From IMG/VR virus record IMGVR_UViG_3300045988_132725: 64,000 nucleotides of DNA; one strand, given 5' to 3'. Numbering within the stretch: position 1 is the first letter of the stretch; each line of letters starts with the position of its first letter. The notes beneath the pieces are model-generated. The model made no database searches. It saw nothing but the letters and a program-made list of their open reading frames with translations, and was not told the DNA's origin. Source of the stretch: a virus. Position numbers and translations under genes: made by a program. This document shows, piece after piece, positions 5,485 through 8,793 of the stretch.

Positions 5485-8400
5485 TTAATAACTGAATTGC
5501 GGTTTAATTGTTGATGTTGTTAATACGGTTCCGGATTGTCCTCCCCGTTGGTATTTTAGCCAGCTTTTTGATAGGAAGGTGCAGAGGACATAGTCAGCGA
5601 CATCTGTGCAATTATGAACCAATATACCATTCGCAAAAAATTCATGCAGATCTTCTACCGTAATGTCATAGACTTTATCTATAATCCTTTCATTTGATTT
5701 CCTTACAAAGAGTTTCTTTTTTTCTTTGATATAATATTCTTGCGTTGATTCTGTTCTTACATCTTCTTGAACAATATTTGACTTTAATCTTACATCTTGT
5801 AGTAAACTCCTTTCCACACCCTTCACATATAATTGTTCTTTCTTCTCCGAATAATGCTTTTTGAGCATGTTCTCTATGCCATTTTCTTCCTTCTTCCGAT
5901 TTGTGCCATTCTGATGCCTTATAGCTGTTTTCAAGAAGGGTTTTAATAGCGATTTCTTTAAGCCTTTCCGATTTATGAATTTGATGATCTGATAGATGAG
6001 TTGATCTTTCTTTGCATTCAAGGTTCGATATGTCATTATTGGAAAAATTCCCATCAATATGGTGGATATGGAACCCCTTTGGGATACTTCCATTATATTT
6101 TTCCCAAACATATCTATGAAGGTATGTTTTTGTGATTTTCTCATTGATATCGACCCACCCTCTATAATATCTTCTGTCAGACTCTTGTTTGGCTTGTTTG
6201 TATCTATGAAATTTGTATCCATCATATATGATGGTTTCTCTGCCTTCTCGCATACTATAAATGTTTTTTGTGTTATCTTATCTATTTCTGTAAAGCCATC
6301 CTCTATTGTATAGAAAGGATGGTCTGGAGTGCAAGTAATATTTGTATCCCCTATGGAGTAATCCTTAACCATTACGTTCTTCCCTGTTACCCCTGAGAAA
6401 GTTACTTTCTTGTATCCTTCTCTTGTCAATACGTAATCGCCAACATTTACATTTTCTATAGGTATTTTTCCCTTCTTAGTGGTTATCATCGTTCCAGCGG
6501 CGAAACAGTGACCATATTTCTCATATCTGACCTTTGTCTTTGGATCAGTGACCTTCTGCTTGTTCTTTGTTCCATCCTCATTTCTGATCTGATAGACCAA
6601 ATCCTCGGTCAATTTCCTGCATCTTAGGTCAATATAAATATTCCACCCATCCAGACCATCGAATAACTCATTGATCCAATCAACACGGTTCTTCTGAGGT
6701 GGTTGCTTGGCTAGTATGTTCTGTTTTGGTCTTAATATGGTGTTATTCATGCAAGACTGGATAATGGTGAAATTGTTTACGCCATCCTCGGTTTGTGTGT
6801 TTCTGGCCAATCCAGCTGGGTCTCCCGTCAATACCACTCCTCCGATATGTTTTGATTCCAATAACTTATCCTTTACGTACTGGGCAAACTTAGGGGTATT
6901 GTTAAGTTTCTCCTCTGGCCTCCCAAGAAATTCCTCCAAAAAATACACGTTCTTATTCTCCCAATCGATTTGTACGGCCTCGCATGTCATGTGCGGAAAT
7001 ACGTTGAAGTCGAATCCTAGGATCAATGGTTTCATCGGATCATATATATTCTCTTTCAAGCTCTGGATCAAATGCTTGTCACCCGAGAAGCTTTTGTATA
7101 GCGCCATTTCATTGGCCTCAACGAAATCCCAGTTTCCATACAGAAGACGTTCCCTTGTTGCGTTATCCTTGATCTTATTCAGCGAAGACTCGTATATCTG
7201 TCGGAAACTCTCATCCGGATTATCGAATATAGAGAACCTAATAAATACCTCGCCATCCCTGCACTTCACAGGATTACCATCATTGTCCTGTACGAACCTA
7301 TCTCGCAACCAACATGCCGCCGGGTTACAAGACAAGAACATCTTGGGAGTCTTGAATGTCTCCGATGTTTTCCAACGAATACGGGAGAACATAACGTCTG
7401 CCGCCCTTTCTGAAATCTCGGATGCCTCGTCAACGAAAACCAAGGTAGCCTCCATAGAACCAAAACGGGAAAAATCCAAGTCCGCTGGAAGATCGGCCAT
7501 CTCCTTCATCATGATAACAGACTCGTTCCAGAAAGTTATCGTTCCCTCTATATTGTTTATGCAGAAATTCTCATCCTCTTTCAATCCCCATTCCTTCATT
7601 ACTTTCTTAATGGTAACAAACGTTGATTCCTTCAGAGACTTGATAGTCTTACGTGCTACCACGGCTCGTATATTGGGGAACCTCATGCAACTGCTCACCA
7701 GCCATGCGCTACCAATATATGAGTTATGGGTGACAAGAAAATCATCGGTGATATATAATTGGTCATCGCTGTCAAGCGTTATGCACCTGCATTCCTTATG
7801 CTCGTCCAACTCGATCACGCTTCGTATATATCTCCTATGAGCTGGCGTGGTTGTCGGTTTTGTCATTTTATTTATCCTTGGATCGAATGAGAAGCGGACG
7901 AAATATTTTATAATTCTACCTTTCCCCTTACTCTTGACTACGGTAGCTATGGCTCCAATACTTCTAAGGATATCCTGTAACTGATTGGCGAATTTCTCCG
8001 ATCGGCTCATGAACTCATATTTGCCGGTACTCCTTATAATTACTTCCTTAAGCAATCCTCTCAAGAAATTTTTTCTGTCCTCAAGGCTGGAGATGACCAG
8101 TTCTTGCGGGATCTCGGTGCGATTTGATCTTTTGAAATTATTAGGATCAGGCATGATGTTTCTGATGTAATACCCCCAAGAGTAAGCGGTCATATAGTTA
8201 TCGAACTTATCACCGAACTCTTGCTCGGTTACAACAGGGAGAAAAGCCAAGTTCCCATTTCTTAATCTCTTTCTGATGGTAGCCGTATCCATTATTCTCT
8301 CGTCAAATCCACCTCGAACCCATGCCCTGTCTCTTTTTTTGTAATACACCTTCCATAAGTGATCATCACAGCATTCGGTGGAGCACCCATCACTGGTAAT

Positions 8401-8793
8401 GACCTTGTTTACCTTTTTCATTCCTTGCTCATGAATGGCTATCACCTTGGCGGTCTTTCCATCTGGGGTTGACACTACTGTTCCTATCTTAACGTCACCC
8501 ATCGTTATCCATCCTTCCGGCGTAAGTATCTTGGCTGAATAAGGTTGTGCCTTGCCTCCTCCAGCCGCTCCTCCTCCGAGAATCATCTGGGGGATGTTCC
8601 TATTACCACATGATGAGCATTCAGGAACATACTGTTTATTCCCATGATCGTCTGTTCCTATATATACGTTCTTTATTTCTCCACCGCATATATGACATTC
8701 TGGCTGTAACGCTTTCCATAGCTCGAATTGTTTTGGCGAAGGGGAGAAATTGATTTTTAAGTCCTTGGGAGGGACTAAAGTTTTGTATCCCAT
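5485..8793 (-). CDS. terL: Terminase large subunit precursor with two inteins (mature about 527 aa)
   Basis: Walker A GGGAAGGGK|...|SYIGSAW is interrupted. Walker B is LVFVDEASE. Nuclease motif EKYGH|...|CTDVADY is interrupted. An N-terminal CxxC...CxxC zinc ribbon is present. Confidence 0.9.
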   Translation of the reverse strand: MGYKTLVPPKDLKINFSPSPKQFELWKALQPECHICGGEIKNVYIGTDDHGNKQYVPECSSCGNRNIPQMILGGGAAGGGKAQPYSAKILTPEGWITMGDVKIGTVVSTPDGKTAKVIAIHEQGMKKVNKVITSDGCSTECCDDHLWKVYYKKRDRAWVRGGFDERIMDTATIRKRLRNGNLAFLPVVTEQEFGDKFDNYMTAYSWGYYIRNIMPDPNNFKRSNRTEIPQELVISSLEDRKNFLRGLLKEVIIRSTGKYEFMSRSEKFANQLQDILRSIGAIATVVKSKGKGRIIKYFVRFSFDPRINKMTKPTTTPAHRRYIRSVIELDEHKECRCITLDSDDQLYITDDFLVTHNSYIGSAWLVSSCMRFPNIRAVVARKTIKSLKESTFVTIKKVMKEWGLKEDENFCINNIEGTITFWNESVIMMKEMADLPADLDFSRFGSMEATLVFVDEASEISERAADVMFSRIRWKTSETFKTPKMFLSCNPAACWLRDRFVQDNDGNPVKCRDGEVFIRFSIFDNPDESFRQIYESSLNKIKDNATRERLLYGNWDFVEANEMALYKSFSGDKHLIQSLKENIYDPMKPLILGFDFNVFPHMTCEAVQIDWENKNVYFLEEFLGRPEEKLNNTPKFAQYVKDKLLESKHIGGVVLTGDPAGLARNTQTEDGVNNFTIIQSCMNNTILRPKQNILAKQPPQKNRVDWINELFDGLDGWNIYIDLRCRKLTEDLVYQIRNEDGTKNKQKVTDPKTKVRYEKYGHCFAAGTMITTKKGKIPIENVNVGDYVLTREGYKKVTFSGVTGKNVMVKDYSIGDTNITCTPDHPFYTIEDGFTEIDKITQKTFIVCEKAEKPSYMMDTNFIDTNKPNKSLTEDIIEGGSISMRKSQKHTFIDMFGKNIMEVSQRGSISTILMGIFPIMTYRTLNAKKDQLIYQIIKFINRKGLKKSLLKPFLKTAIRHQNGTNRKKEENGIENMLKKHYSEKKEQLYVKGVERSLLQDVRLKSNIVQEDVRTESTQEYYIKEKKKLFVRKSNERIIDKVYDITVEDLHEFFANGILVHNCTDVADYVLCTFLSKSWLKYQRGGQSGTVLTTSTIKPQFSY
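5611..6507 (-). mobile_element. Intein 2 of TerL (class 1; Cys1 ... HN / +1 Cys), 299 codons
   Basis: CFAAGTMITTKKGKIPIENVNVGDYVL (block A), TPDHPF (block B), VYDITVEDLHEFFANGILVHN|C (blocks F/G). Codon positions were checked against the nucleotides (TGT at 6505-6507, AAT at 5611-5613). Confidence 0.85.
5690..6253 (-). CDS. HNH homing endonuclease (187 aa) encoded inside intein 2 in a different reading frame
   Basis: LHRYVWEKYNGSIPKGFHIHHIDGNFSNNDISNLE...HLSDH is an HNH motif. C-terminal CEGCGKEF...YCSRRC is a zinc ribbon. The ORF has its own ATG and is offset by 2 nt from the terL frame. Confidence 0.85.
   Translation of the reverse strand: MREGRETIIYDGYKFHRYKQAKQESDRRYYRGWVDINEKITKTYLHRYVWEKYNGSIPKGFHIHHIDGNFSNNDISNLECKERSTHLSDHQIHKSERLKEIAIKTLLENSYKASEWHKSEEGRKWHREHAQKALFGEERTIICEGCGKEFTTRCKIKVKYCSRRCKNRINARILYQRKKETLCKEIK
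7723..8550 (-). mobile_element. Intein 1 of TerL in the Walker A P-loop, 276 codons, class-3-like (Ala1, W-C-T) with a degenerate LAGLIDADG-like centre
   Basis: GGGK|AQPYSAKILTPEGWITMGDV..., block B CDDHLW, block F ECRCITLDSDDQLYITDDFLVTHN|S. NFLRGLLKEVIIRSTGKYEF...ANQLQDILRSIG resembles a decayed dodecapeptide endonuclease. Confidence 0.75.

What the first reader, a model, noticed from the sequence alone, without database searches (positions are those of the whole stretch)
5611..6507. TerL intein with a complete HNH homing-endonuclease gene overprinted in a different reading frame
In the terL frame, residues 763-1061 form a canonical class 1 intein. It reads CFAAGTMITT..., TPDHPF (block B) and VYDITVEDLHEFFANGILVHN, followed by a +1 Cys. 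It splits the nuclease-domain motif EKYGH|CTDVADY. Between blocks B and F, where intein endonuclease domains normally sit, the intein frame reads motif-free Lys/Glu/Ile-rich sequence. A frame offset by 2 nt holds a 187-codon ORF (5690-6253) with its own ATG. That ORF has a clean HNH motif (LHRYVWEKYNGSIPKGFHIHHIDGNFSNNDISNLE...HLSDH) and a CxxC...CSRRC zinc ribbon. Both frames stay open over ~560 nt of AT-rich DNA, which is very unlikely by chance. The intein frame therefore seems to be kept open by selection, because it must be translated through for TerL to splice. The endonuclease would then be made as a free-standing, overlapping gene. I know of in-frame endonuclease inteins, and of fractured genes with split inteins flanking a free-standing endonuclease. 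I do not know of an out-of-frame nested arrangement, which could be an evolutionary intermediate between the two.
Basis: partly seen in the sequence, partly recalled or inferred. Interest (0 to 1): 0.85.

Follow-up and report, generated by a model that had tools for sequence, protein, structure and literature searches.

The report
Terminase intein with overprinted HNH gene
A self-splicing insert (intein) in a Bacteroides-type phage's DNA-packaging enzyme carries, in a second overlapping reading frame, an intact gene for the DNA-cutting enzyme that probably spreads it; the arrangement is real, was first described in 2025 for other enzymes and hosts, and proves common in phage terminase genes.

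Summary
terL (minus strand, 5485-8793, 1102 codons) stays open through a class-1 intein (aa 763-1061). A 187-codon HNH_3 ORF (5690-6253) lies inside that intein, offset +2 nt. Resampling synonymous codons gives P about 1e-4 for both frames staying open.

The HNH frame is the one under amino-acid selection. It has its own ATG, folds confidently (pLDDT 93.5) and best matches the homing endonuclease I-HmuI. The intein-frame linker is only kept free of stops and is predicted with low confidence.

Phages with 96-100% identical terL extein protein show every homing-cycle state: empty site, full intein, HNH nonsense allele, and a mini-intein with the HNH region deleted.

The arrangement is not unique. 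Of 135 homologous loci, 92 are nested: 88 in this frame relation and 4 in the other. None is in frame. They include five deposited records (four named phages, one unverified gut contig) from phages of distant bacterial groups.

The architecture is already published: Gosselin, Arsenault and Gogarten 2025 (bioRxiv), plus related papers from 2025-26. Those cover other nuclease families and hosts. This is therefore a new member of a recently described kind, and it looks stable rather than a transient intermediate.

The parts
5485..8793 (-). terL (large terminase) precursor, 1102 codons, with two inteins. The predicted spliced product is 527 aa.
   Evidence: Single open frame. Matches Pfam Terminase_3 and PHROG terminase families. 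The spliced length equals that of the intein-less Bacteroides phage BS-TP1 TerL (527 aa, 56% identical).
5611..6507 (-). Intein 2 (aa 763-1061, 299 aa), class 1, inserted in the terL nuclease motif EKYGH|C-TDVADY.
   Evidence: Has Cys1, TPDH (block B), VYDITVED...ILVHN and Cys+1. Boundaries are confirmed by empty-site alleles: BS-TP1 (EKYGH|FSDTLDY), L141 (EKFGH|NSDVFDY) and L149 (EKYGH|CSDVFDY).
6241..6507 (-). N-terminal splicing subdomain of intein 2 (intein residues 1-89).
   Evidence: AF2 pLDDT is 80-89. Substitutions in close relatives here are mostly synonymous in the terL frame.
5707..6240 (-). Intein-frame linker (intein residues 90-267). It is the translated shadow of the HNH gene, kept free of stop codons but not conserved as a protein.
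   Evidence: AF2 pLDDT is 26-62. Only 2 of 19 substitutions are synonymous in the terL frame, and changes include L>P and F>S. The region is deleted in mini-intein alleles L138-140 and L143-147 and in proteins P0123 and P0124.
5611..5706 (-). C-terminal splicing subdomain of intein 2 (blocks F and G, ending HN).
   Evidence: AF2 pLDDT is 74-88. The motif (Y/F)FANG(I/V)LVHN|C is conserved in nearly all nested homologues.
5608..5610 (-). Cys+1 codon (TGC), the first C-extein residue and the splicing nucleophile.
   Evidence: Read directly from the sequence. Empty alleles carry F, N or C at this position.
5690..6253 (-). Nested HNH_3 homing-endonuclease gene: 187 codons plus stop, offset +2 nt (-1 frame) from terL, with its own ATG at 6251-6253.
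   Evidence: Pfam HNH_3 E = 1.2e-16. AF2 pLDDT is 93.5. The top Foldseek PDB hit is I-HmuI 1u3e, probability 0.99. 12 of 19 substitutions are HNH-synonymous, P = 4e-4.
6254..6275 (-). A-rich leader without a Shine-Dalgarno motif, directly upstream of the HNH ATG (...ACACAAAAAACATTTATAGT ATG). The in-frame stop lies 8 codons upstream.
   Evidence: The same type of leader occurs in other low-GC relatives, including L120 and L122 from Bacteroides MAG contigs. 30 of 72 unique nested copies carry a GGAGG-like motif instead.
7723..8550 (-). Intein 1 (aa 82-357, 276 aa) in the P-loop GGAAGGGK|...THN|SYIGS. It is a separate intein and not part of the overprinting.
   Evidence: Boundaries are confirmed by BS-TP1 and L150, which read GGGK|SYLGS. 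No nested ORF was listed inside it.

Best explanation
Intein 2 of terL is a mobile class-1 intein whose homing endonuclease is a separate, overprinted gene rather than a domain of the intein protein.

1. **Read-through (inferred).** Ribosomes translating terL pass through the whole 299-codon intein. The N-terminal (about 89 aa) and C-terminal (about 32 aa) splicing subdomains fold into a HINT domain. The roughly 178 aa between them is a low-confidence linker whose only requirement is to contain no stop codon.
2. **Splicing (inferred).** Protein splicing removes the intein and rejoins EKYGH-CTDVADY. This restores the nuclease-domain motif of a 527-aa TerL.
3. **Independent translation (inferred).** On the same mRNA, ribosomes initiate at the internal ATG (6253) in the -1 frame. 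They make a 187-aa I-HmuI-like HNH enzyme with a zinc ribbon.
4. **Homing (inferred).** During co-infection this enzyme nicks or cuts intein-less terL alleles near the insertion site. Repair from the intein-bearing allele copies the intein and HNH gene, together with some flanking extein sequence.
5. **Decay (shown as population states).** Once there are no empty targets, the HNH gene decays by nonsense mutation. It is then deleted to leave a mini-intein, or the intein is lost.

**Shown computationally here:** the dual open frames, frame-specific selection, the own start codon and Shine-Dalgarno enrichment, the predicted folds, all allele states in near-identical phages, and the breadth of the family.

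**Not shown:** splicing, expression of the 187-aa product, and its cleavage target.
For: - **Dual open frames:** P about 1e-4 in the window. Nested homologues carry no stops in the host frame; free-standing homologues carry a mean of 6.8.
- **Selection, close relatives:** against L012 and L013, 12 of 19 substitutions in the overlap are HNH-synonymous, P = 4e-4. Only 2 of 19 are terL-synonymous. Outside the overlap, in L012, 7 of 11 are terL-synonymous.
- **Selection, diverged pairs:** HNH amino-acid identity is 66-74% against 43-54% for the host frame. Substitutions at HNH codon position 3 are the most frequent, about 1.3-3 times those at positions 1 or 2.
- **Own translation start:** 66 of 72 unique nested ORFs begin with ATG, a median of 4 codons after the upstream stop. 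A Shine-Dalgarno-like motif occurs in 42% against an 11.5% background, P = 8e-11.
- **Fold:** the HNH ORF has pLDDT 93.5 and its top PDB match is I-HmuI. In the intein frame the splicing domain has pLDDT 80-89 and the linker 26-62.
- **Homing-cycle states:** phages with 96-100% identical terL extein protein show the full intein, an HNH nonsense allele that is silent in terL (L011/L137), a 125-aa mini-intein lacking the HNH region, and empty sites.
- **Junction divergence:** 23 of 51 extein mismatches between the window and empty allele L141 lie within about 120 nt of the junction (60 nt upstream to 120 nt downstream).
- **Precise boundaries:** confirmed against the intein-less BS-TP1 TerL.
- **Published parallels:** the same architecture is described for other nuclease families.
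Against: - There is no experimental evidence here for splicing, for translation of the 187-aa product, or for its target site.
- The window's HNH leader has no Shine-Dalgarno motif. This is expected for a Bacteroidota host, but initiation inside a translated ORF may be inefficient.
- The window's HNH lacks the second C-terminal zinc ribbon that most relatives have, so its activity could be weakened.
- A 99.8%-identical relative already carries a nonsense mutation.
- The Foldseek match to I-HmuI has high probability but a weak E-value (6e-3) and low TM-scores (0.31-0.33), because both proteins are elongated.
- Free-standing relatives sit next to terminase genes, which could also fit a packaging role.
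Confidence: 0.85

Rival explanations
1. Sequencing or assembly frameshift artefact. The HNH domain would really be in frame with the intein, as in a conventional HNH intein.
For: Single Logan contigs encode frame-chimeric proteins (P0002, P0122) that switch frame. P0002 switches at an A7 run. Homopolymer errors therefore do occur at this locus.
Against: - The terL frame would not stay open over 560 nt after a frameshift (P about 1e-4).
- The same +2 offset appears in 88 loci, many of them independent assemblies. They include five deposited records (four named phages: Highwayman, phiCDHM19, TJE1, LS06-2018-MD07).
- Among the 120 listed HNH homologues (of 490 found), none is a long protein of the kind an in-frame intein-HNH fusion would give. 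The longest is 320 aa.
Confidence: 0.01
2. The HNH domain is made by programmed -1 ribosomal frameshifting from the terL frame. The product would be a fusion of N-extein, N-terminal intein and HNH, rather than a protein from independent initiation.
For: The offset corresponds to a -1 shift. In the window an A6 run (CAA AAA ACA) lies 5 codons upstream of the HNH ATG, inside the short open stretch of the HNH frame.
Against: - The run is not a canonical X XXY YYZ heptamer, and the upstream sequences listed for homologues mostly do not show it.
- 66 of 72 nested ORFs have an ATG, a median of 4 codons after the upstream stop.
- Shine-Dalgarno motifs are enriched just upstream (42% against 11.5%).
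- Neither feature would be needed for frameshifting.
Confidence: 0.04
3. The nested HNH is a terminase accessory nuclease needed for DNA packaging (like HK97 gp74) that has lodged inside terL. It would not be a homing endonuclease.
For: Free-standing homologues lie directly next to terminase genes. They sit upstream of terS in Acinetobacter phage BP10. They sit between terL and the portal gene in Lactobacillus CL2 and Exiguobacterium vB_EauM-23, and just after terL in Pseudomonas PAE1. HNH genes beside terminases are known packaging factors (abstract of PMC3592412).
Against: - The gene is dispensable. Phages with 96-99% identical terL extein protein have the HNH region deleted (mini-intein) or no intein at all, and one has a nonsense allele.
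- The domain is HNH_3, and the best structural match is the homing enzyme I-HmuI.
- The position is the canonical endonuclease-insertion loop of an intein.
Confidence: 0.05
4. The HNH ORF is a silent relic. The intein splices, but the nested gene is no longer expressed or active in this particular phage.
For: - The window's HNH lacks the second zinc ribbon.
- The window's leader has no Shine-Dalgarno motif.
- A near-identical relative has a nonsense mutation.
- Mini-intein alleles are common (P0124 has 37 member sequences).
Against: - The ORF is intact.
- Catalytic and zinc-binding residues that are invariant across 53 homologues are present.
- There is an excess of HNH-synonymous substitutions within this very clade, P = 4e-4.
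- The predicted fold is confident.
Confidence: 0.05

Closest known systems
Actinobacteriophage inteins with an out-of-frame (frame 3) endonuclease VII-like homing endonuclease (Gosselin, Arsenault and Gogarten, bioRxiv 10.1101/2025.01.02.630785)
   Same: - The nuclease ORF lies in the endonuclease-insertion region of an intein, on the same strand, in frame 3 (+2).
- The intein frame stays open but folds into nothing recognisable there.
- Terminase large subunit is among the four host protein types listed for the non-canonical inteins.
- The proposed origin is invasion by a free-standing endonuclease gene.
   Different: - The nuclease family differs. Here it is HNH_3, I-HmuI-like, with a zinc ribbon. 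Pfam returned only HNH_3 and a weak zf-MYND match at E <= 0.1, and no endonuclease VII family.
- tblastn of the window's HNH and intein against 50,697 phage records listed no Mycobacterium phage, and the only named actinobacteriophage was Tetrasphaera phage TJE1.
- The host here is a Bacteroides-type phage.
- The family found here spans many phage groups and also includes a second frame relation.
Cyanobacterial dnaX intein with a LAGLIDADG endonuclease in the +2 ORF (Phillips, DeSimone and Gogarten, bioRxiv 10.64898/2026.09.14.751524)
   Same: - Overlapping +2 ORF.
- Low-confidence intein-frame linker.
- Purifying selection on the endonuclease frame.
- Coexisting full, mini and empty alleles.
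   Different: The nuclease is LAGLIDADG rather than HNH. The host gene is cellular (dnaX) rather than a phage terminase.
ShiLan-type hidden HNH insertions in phage DNA methylase genes (Arsenault et al., Genes 2025, PMC11855218)
   Same: - An out-of-frame (third frame) HNH endonuclease of about 195 aa with zinc fingers.
- The host frame stays open.
- Distribution is sporadic.
   Different: - ShiLan has no detectable splicing domain, so the insert apparently stays in the methylase. Here a complete class-1 intein surrounds the HNH gene.
- There is no detectable sequence similarity at E <= 1e-5.
Fractured genes: split inteins flanking a free-standing endonuclease gene (Dassa et al. 2009, PMC2677866)
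   Same: The endonuclease is a separate gene located between the intein's two splicing halves.
   Different: Here the host gene is not split. One continuous ORF runs through the intein, so splicing would occur in cis.
I-HmuI (phage SPO1 intron-encoded HNH nicking endonuclease, PDB 1u3e)
   Same: It is the best structural match to the nested ORF. Both share the HNH_3-type catalytic core and an elongated multi-domain shape.
   Different: - I-HmuI is encoded inside a group I intron rather than an intein.
- Sequence identity is 16%.
- The C-terminal DNA-binding module here is a zinc ribbon.

Membership tests
Class 1 intein (HINT splicing domain) | N-terminal Cys/Ser nucleophile, block B TxxH, block F/G ending in HN, and Cys/Ser/Thr at +1 | tested here: met
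   C763, TPDH at intein residues 60-63, VYDITVED...ILVHN, and C1062. The same residues are conserved in 80 of 86 nested homologues.
Class 1 intein (HINT splicing domain) | Profile match above the curated threshold | tested here: met
   Pfam Intein_splicing 43.3 bits (cut-off 35.8). Hint_2 39.6 bits (cut-off 28.4).
Class 1 intein (HINT splicing domain) | A precise in-frame insertion relative to intein-less alleles of the host protein | tested here: met
   BS-TP1 TerL (527 aa) aligns without the insert: EKYGH|FSDTLDY. L141, L148, L149 and L150 are empty-site alleles.
Class 1 intein (HINT splicing domain) | Autocatalytic protein splicing | not testable with these tools
   Inferred from intact catalytic residues and from terL being essential for packaging.
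HNH_3 / I-HmuI-like homing endonuclease | HNH_3 profile match and conserved catalytic His/Asn and zinc-binding Cys residues | tested here: met
   HNH_3 60.5 bits (cut-off 24.8). H46, H64, H65, N73, N77, H86, C143, C146 and C161 are invariant in 53 homologues.
HNH_3 / I-HmuI-like homing endonuclease | Structural similarity to a characterised homing HNH enzyme | tested here: inconclusive
   The top PDB hit is I-HmuI 1u3e at probability 0.99 over 165 columns. However, E = 6e-3 and TM is 0.31-0.33.
HNH_3 / I-HmuI-like homing endonuclease | Sporadic presence or absence among close relatives (homing cycle) | tested here: met
   Full, nonsense, mini and empty alleles occur in phages with 96-100% identical terL extein protein. 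Divergence is clustered at the junction.
HNH_3 / I-HmuI-like homing endonuclease | Site-specific cleavage of the intein-less allele | not testable with these tools
The target site is unknown.
[quoted passage not shown] 2025; Phillips et al. 2026) | [quoted passage not shown] | tested here: met
   The HNH ORF spans intein codons 85-272, offset +2, with no stops in the terL frame.
[quoted passage not shown] 2025; Phillips et al. 2026) | The nuclease frame folds and is under purifying selection, while the intein-frame linker is unstructured | tested here: met
   pLDDT is 93.5 for the HNH ORF against 26-62 for the linker. Selection pattern.
[quoted passage not shown] 2025; Phillips et al. 2026) | Nuclease belongs to one of the published families (EndoVII-like or LAGLIDADG) | tested here: not met
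   Pfam returns only HNH_3 and a weak zf-MYND match at E <= 0.1. This is the same architecture with a different nuclease family.
Fractured gene with split intein (Dassa et al. 2009) | Host gene split into two ORFs, each carrying one intein half | tested here: not met
   terL is one uninterrupted 1102-codon ORF.
Terminase-associated packaging HNH (HK97 gp74 type) | Required partner of the terminase, and therefore invariably present | tested here: not met
   The HNH region is deleted or absent in phages with 96-99% identical terL extein protein. The domain is HNH_3, and Pfam reported no other HNH family at E <= 0.1.

The most novel reading that the evidence does not exclude
The HNH_3-in-terL-intein arrangement may be an old, stable architecture spanning many host phyla, and not a rare accident or a transitional state. 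Among the homologous loci sampled here (selected for similarity to the window's HNH), most copies (92 of 135) are nested and none is in frame with the intein. That would imply a positive advantage to keeping the endonuclease as a separately initiated, overprinted gene. Possible advantages are uncoupling its dosage from TerL, avoiding interference with splicing, and linking its survival to an essential reading frame. It would also give a general rule for the frame used. With the nuclease codons fixed, the frame one nucleotide downstream needs only about 7 stop codons removed, almost all by synonymous changes, against about 20 in the other frame. That is the same 'frame 3' relation reported for all three published cases. 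To my knowledge, within the literature I could search, neither this family nor this rule has been described.
Probability: 0.45. Interest if true: 0.7.

Novelty: new member of a known kind. Interest (0 to 1): 0.55.

Why it matters
**Evolution.** It adds a third nuclease class (HNH_3, I-HmuI-like) to inteins whose homing endonuclease is a separate overlapping gene. It also adds a much wider host range: phages linked to Bacteroidota, Firmicutes, Proteobacteria, Actinobacteria and cyanobacteria, plus contigs binned as archaeal. This supports the 'splicing domain first, endonuclease gene invades later' view of intein evolution. It also gives a natural system with all homing-cycle states present in near-identical human-gut-type phages.

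**Annotation.**
- These nested genes are usually not annotated. In phages Highwayman, phiCDHM19, TJE1 and LS06-2018-MD07 the region is annotated only as terminase large subunit.
- Gene callers that forbid nested ORFs will miss a whole class of endonucleases.
- The intein-frame linker can be mistaken for a novel domain.

**Overlapping genes.** It is a clean example of two overlapping frames with different constraints. One is selected for its protein sequence. The other is selected only for having no stop codons.

Tried and rejected
- **Megablast of terL against 50,697 phage records:** no match. Relatives were found only at the protein level.
- **Programmed -1 frameshift at the A6 run upstream of the HNH ATG:** rejected. 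The run is not a canonical slippery heptamer, and nearly all homologues have their own ATG, many with a Shine-Dalgarno motif.
- **Assembly frameshift artefact:** rejected.
- **Packaging-accessory HNH:** rejected because the gene is dispensable in near-identical phages.
- **Acinetobacter phages BP10 (free-standing HNH) and Highwayman (nested HNH) as a recent free-to-nested transition:** uninformative. Their TerL proteins are only 29% identical and their HNH proteins 51%.
- **Genome-contig scan with the 16-sequence alignment A1:** It was repeated with the 6-sequence alignment A3.
- **Word-seeded protein search with the intein-frame peptide:** only 11 hits. This is expected, because the linker is not conserved.
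- **Origin of nesting:** a neighbour-joining tree with Fitch counting shows the nested state is clustered (13 changes against 32 expected for shuffled labels). Sequences this diverged cannot resolve how many times nesting arose.
- **Co-divergence:** the HNH and splicing-domain identities are only modestly correlated (Mantel r = 0.31).
- **Not done:** no direct comparison with the published EndoVII-like or ShiLan sequences, because I had no accession numbers for them.
Full report
**1.

All features are on the minus strand.
- terL occupies 5485-8793 as one open frame of 1102 codons.
- Residues 763-1061 (window 5611-6507) have every hallmark of a class-1 intein: Cys1 (CFAAGTMITT), block B TPDH, VYDITVEDLHEFFANGILVHN, and Cys+1.
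- Pfam Intein_splicing and Hint_2 both score above their curated cut-offs.
- Inside the intein, offset by +2 nt, lies a 187-codon ORF (5690-6253) with its own ATG. It matches Pfam HNH_3 (E = 1.2e-16) and PHROG HNH-endonuclease families.

Both frames staying open is not chance.
- With the HNH protein held fixed and synonymous codons resampled from the window's codon usage, the terL frame stays open in 0.015% of 20,000 trials (mean 7 stops).
- The converse test gives 0.005%.
- The third frame has 22 stops over the same stretch.

**2. Which frame is selected for what**

IMG/VR holds three contigs whose HNH is 97-99% identical at the protein level. I compared them with the window.
- In L012, outside the overlap, 7 of 11 substitutions are silent in the terL frame.
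- In L012, inside the overlap, 8 of 11 are silent in the HNH frame. These fall on terL codon position 2 and cause radical changes such as L>P, F>S and G>D.
- Pooling L012 and L013 gives 19 substituted sites in the overlap. Twelve are HNH-synonymous (about 25% expected, P = 4e-4) and only 2 are terL-synonymous.
- More diverged nested pairs show the same pattern. HNH identity is 66-74% against 43-54% for the host frame, and substitutions are most frequent at HNH codon position 3.

Structure predictions agree.
- The HNH ORF folds at pLDDT 93.5. Its best PDB match is the homing endonuclease I-HmuI: probability 0.99, but E = 6e-3 and low TM-scores because both proteins are elongated.
- The intein-frame translation gives a confident HINT domain (residues 1-89 and 268-299, pLDDT about 80-89). 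The linker between them scores 26-62.

So the HNH frame encodes a protein, and the intein-frame linker is only required to contain no stop.

**3. The nested gene looks independently translated**

Among 72 non-redundant nested homologues:
- 66 begin with ATG (3 with GTG, 2 with TTG), a median of 4 codons after the upstream in-frame stop.
- A Shine-Dalgarno-like motif lies 4-17 nt upstream in 42%, against 11.5% at control positions (P = 8e-11).

The window and several other low-GC relatives, including two from Bacteroides MAG contigs, instead have an A-rich leader without a Shine-Dalgarno motif. This fits a Bacteroidota host. The nearest isolate is Bacteroides phage BS-TP1, with 57% TerL identity.

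These features argue against expression by -1 frameshifting, even though the window has an A6 run just upstream of the ATG.

**4. Intein boundaries and the homing cycle**

- Intein-less BS-TP1 TerL is 527 aa, exactly the predicted spliced length. It aligns across both junctions: GGGK|SYLGS and EKYGH|FSDTLDY.
- IMG/VR phages with 96-100% identical terL extein protein show four states:
  - the full 299-aa intein (L135-L137);
  - the same intein with a nonsense mutation in the HNH gene that is silent in terL (L011/L137, S>* and R>R);
  - a 125-aa mini-intein in which the HNH region is cleanly deleted (L138-140, L143-147; proteins P0123 and P0124);
  - empty sites (L141, L142; also L148, L149 and L150 at 92%, 79% and 60% identity).
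- Between the window and empty allele L141, 23 of 51 extein mismatches lie within about 120 nt of the insertion point (60 nt upstream to 120 nt downstream). This is the pattern expected from co-conversion or target-site divergence.
- This is the classical homing-cycle picture. It also shows the HNH gene is dispensable, which argues against a role as a packaging nuclease.

**5. The arrangement is widespread**

- tblastn against GenBank phages found the same nesting, with the same +2 offset, in Acinetobacter phage Highwayman, Clostridium phage phiCDHM19, Tetrasphaera phage TJE1, Rhodobacteraceae phage LS06-2018-MD07 and an unverified gut contig. I verified each by reading the ORFs. In the four named phages the region is annotated only as terminase large subunit.
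- Two IMG/VR scans and one scan of GTDB genomes raised the total to 135 loci.
  - 88 have the HNH ORF nested with the host frame one nucleotide downstream of the HNH frame. Over the matched HNH region that host frame has no stops.
  - 4 (L056, L075, L085, L104) are nested in terL inteins in the other frame relation.
  - 43 are free-standing.
  - None is in frame.
- Host ORFs end with the intein motif ...FANG(I/V)LVHN|C, followed by the terL nuclease motif (often DAxRY). Six of ten sampled hosts hit Pfam terminase families above their curated cut-offs, and a seventh just below.
- Free-standing relatives with GC below 0.5 carry a mean of 6.8 stops in the +1 frame. Only about 1 of these is unavoidable at the amino-acid level (Met followed by a residue whose codons all begin with A). 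They carry about 20 in the +2 frame. This offers a simple reason why 'frame 3' nesting predominates.
- Free-standing copies often sit beside terminase genes.
- The nested state is phylogenetically clustered (13 state changes against 32 for shuffled labels). HNH and splicing-domain divergence are modestly correlated (Mantel r = 0.31).
- Median HNH identity among unique nested copies is about 31%.

Together these points describe a long-lived unit that spreads, and not a fleeting intermediate.

**6. Comparison with the literature**

  - Gosselin, Arsenault and Gogarten (bioRxiv, 2025) describe actinobacteriophage inteins with an EndoVII-like endonuclease in 'frame 3'. They list terminase large subunit among the four host protein types of their non-canonical inteins, and they propose invasion by free-standing endonuclease genes.
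  - Phillips et al. (bioRxiv, 2026) describe a +2-frame LAGLIDADG in the cyanobacterial dnaX intein, with frame-specific selection.
  - Arsenault et al. (Genes, 2025) describe out-of-frame HNH insertions in methylases that lack an intein.
- Further full-text searches found no report of an HNH_3-type nested endonuclease in terL inteins, nor of this family's breadth.
- The nuclease here is not EndoVII-like. Pfam returns only HNH_3 and a weak zf-MYND match. Neither the HNH nor the intein query listed a Mycobacterium phage, and Tetrasphaera phage TJE1 was the only named actinobacteriophage.

**7. Verdict**

It is a new member, from a different nuclease family and host range, of a kind described in 2025-26.

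The added value from this analysis is:
- the scale of the family;
- the second frame relation;
- the absence of in-frame forms;
- the start-codon and Shine-Dalgarno evidence;
- the complete set of homing-cycle alleles;
- a simple explanation for the preferred frame.

Splicing, translation of the 187-aa product and its cleavage target remain untested.

Noticed in passing
window 7723-8550 (- strand), terL aa 82-357: terL carries a second, separate intein in its P-loop (GGAAGGGK|AQPYSAKILT...LVTHN|SYIGS). It starts with Ala. It has Trp two residues after the block B His (DDHLW), Cys in block F (RCITLD) and Thr before HN, which is the WCT signature I recall for class 3 inteins. The middle region has LAGLIDADG-like motifs in frame. 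Boundaries are confirmed by intein-less BS-TP1 and L150.
   Followed up: partly
L056, L075, L085, L104 (IMG/VR contigs): Four terL inteins carry a related HNH gene nested in the other frame relation (host frame two nucleotides downstream of the HNH frame). They have no stops where about 20 would be expected. Overprinting in this family therefore exists in both possible frames.
   Followed up: partly
L011 = L137 (IMGVR_UViG_3300029353_000133), intein position 538: A relative 99.8% identical across the intein has a C>A change that turns Ser into a stop in the HNH frame and is silent (Arg>Arg) in terL. This is either an HNH-null allele or a sequencing error.
   Followed up: partly
window 5717-5723 (T7 on the + strand, A7 in the genes): A homopolymer run sits near the 3' end of the HNH ORF. 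The single-contig protein P0002 switches from the HNH frame to the terL frame there, and P0121 and P0122 end differently from terL at about the same point. These are either homopolymer assembly errors or real slippage variants.
   Followed up: no
window 6707-7840 (+ strand): A 377-aa ORF runs antisense to the terL extein. It is probably a shadow ORF of the coding strand. It was not searched against any database.
   Followed up: no
L119 (CAYPRJ010000016.1) and L126 (JAZDEO010000002.1): Nested HNH-in-terL-intein loci lie on contigs binned as a Candidatus Woesearchaeota archaeon and an unclassified archaeon MAG. They could be archaeal viruses or mis-binned phage contigs.
   Followed up: no
L141 versus window, about 120 nt around the intein-2 insertion point (window about 5490-5610 and 6508-6567): The empty-site allele is 96% identical overall, but 23 of its 51 mismatches cluster at the junction. 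It reads EKFGH|NSDVFDY where the window reads EKYGH|CTDVADY. This could be a co-conversion tract or a cleavage-resistant target variant.
   Followed up: partly
L010 (Clostridium phage phiCD119, AY855346): In this 2005-era record terL is annotated as a truncated ter2 (778-1746) plus 'ORF3' (1897-2595). The related phiCDHM19 has one continuous terL with the nested HNH. The phiCD119 record therefore probably contains frameshift errors or a degraded copy.
   Followed up: no
window 1-64000: Nearly all long ORFs are on the minus strand, and no tRNA genes were found. The closest isolate by TerL is the 112-kb Bacteroides phage BS-TP1 (57% identity). The window is probably part of a large Bacteroides-type phage genome.
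   Followed up: partly
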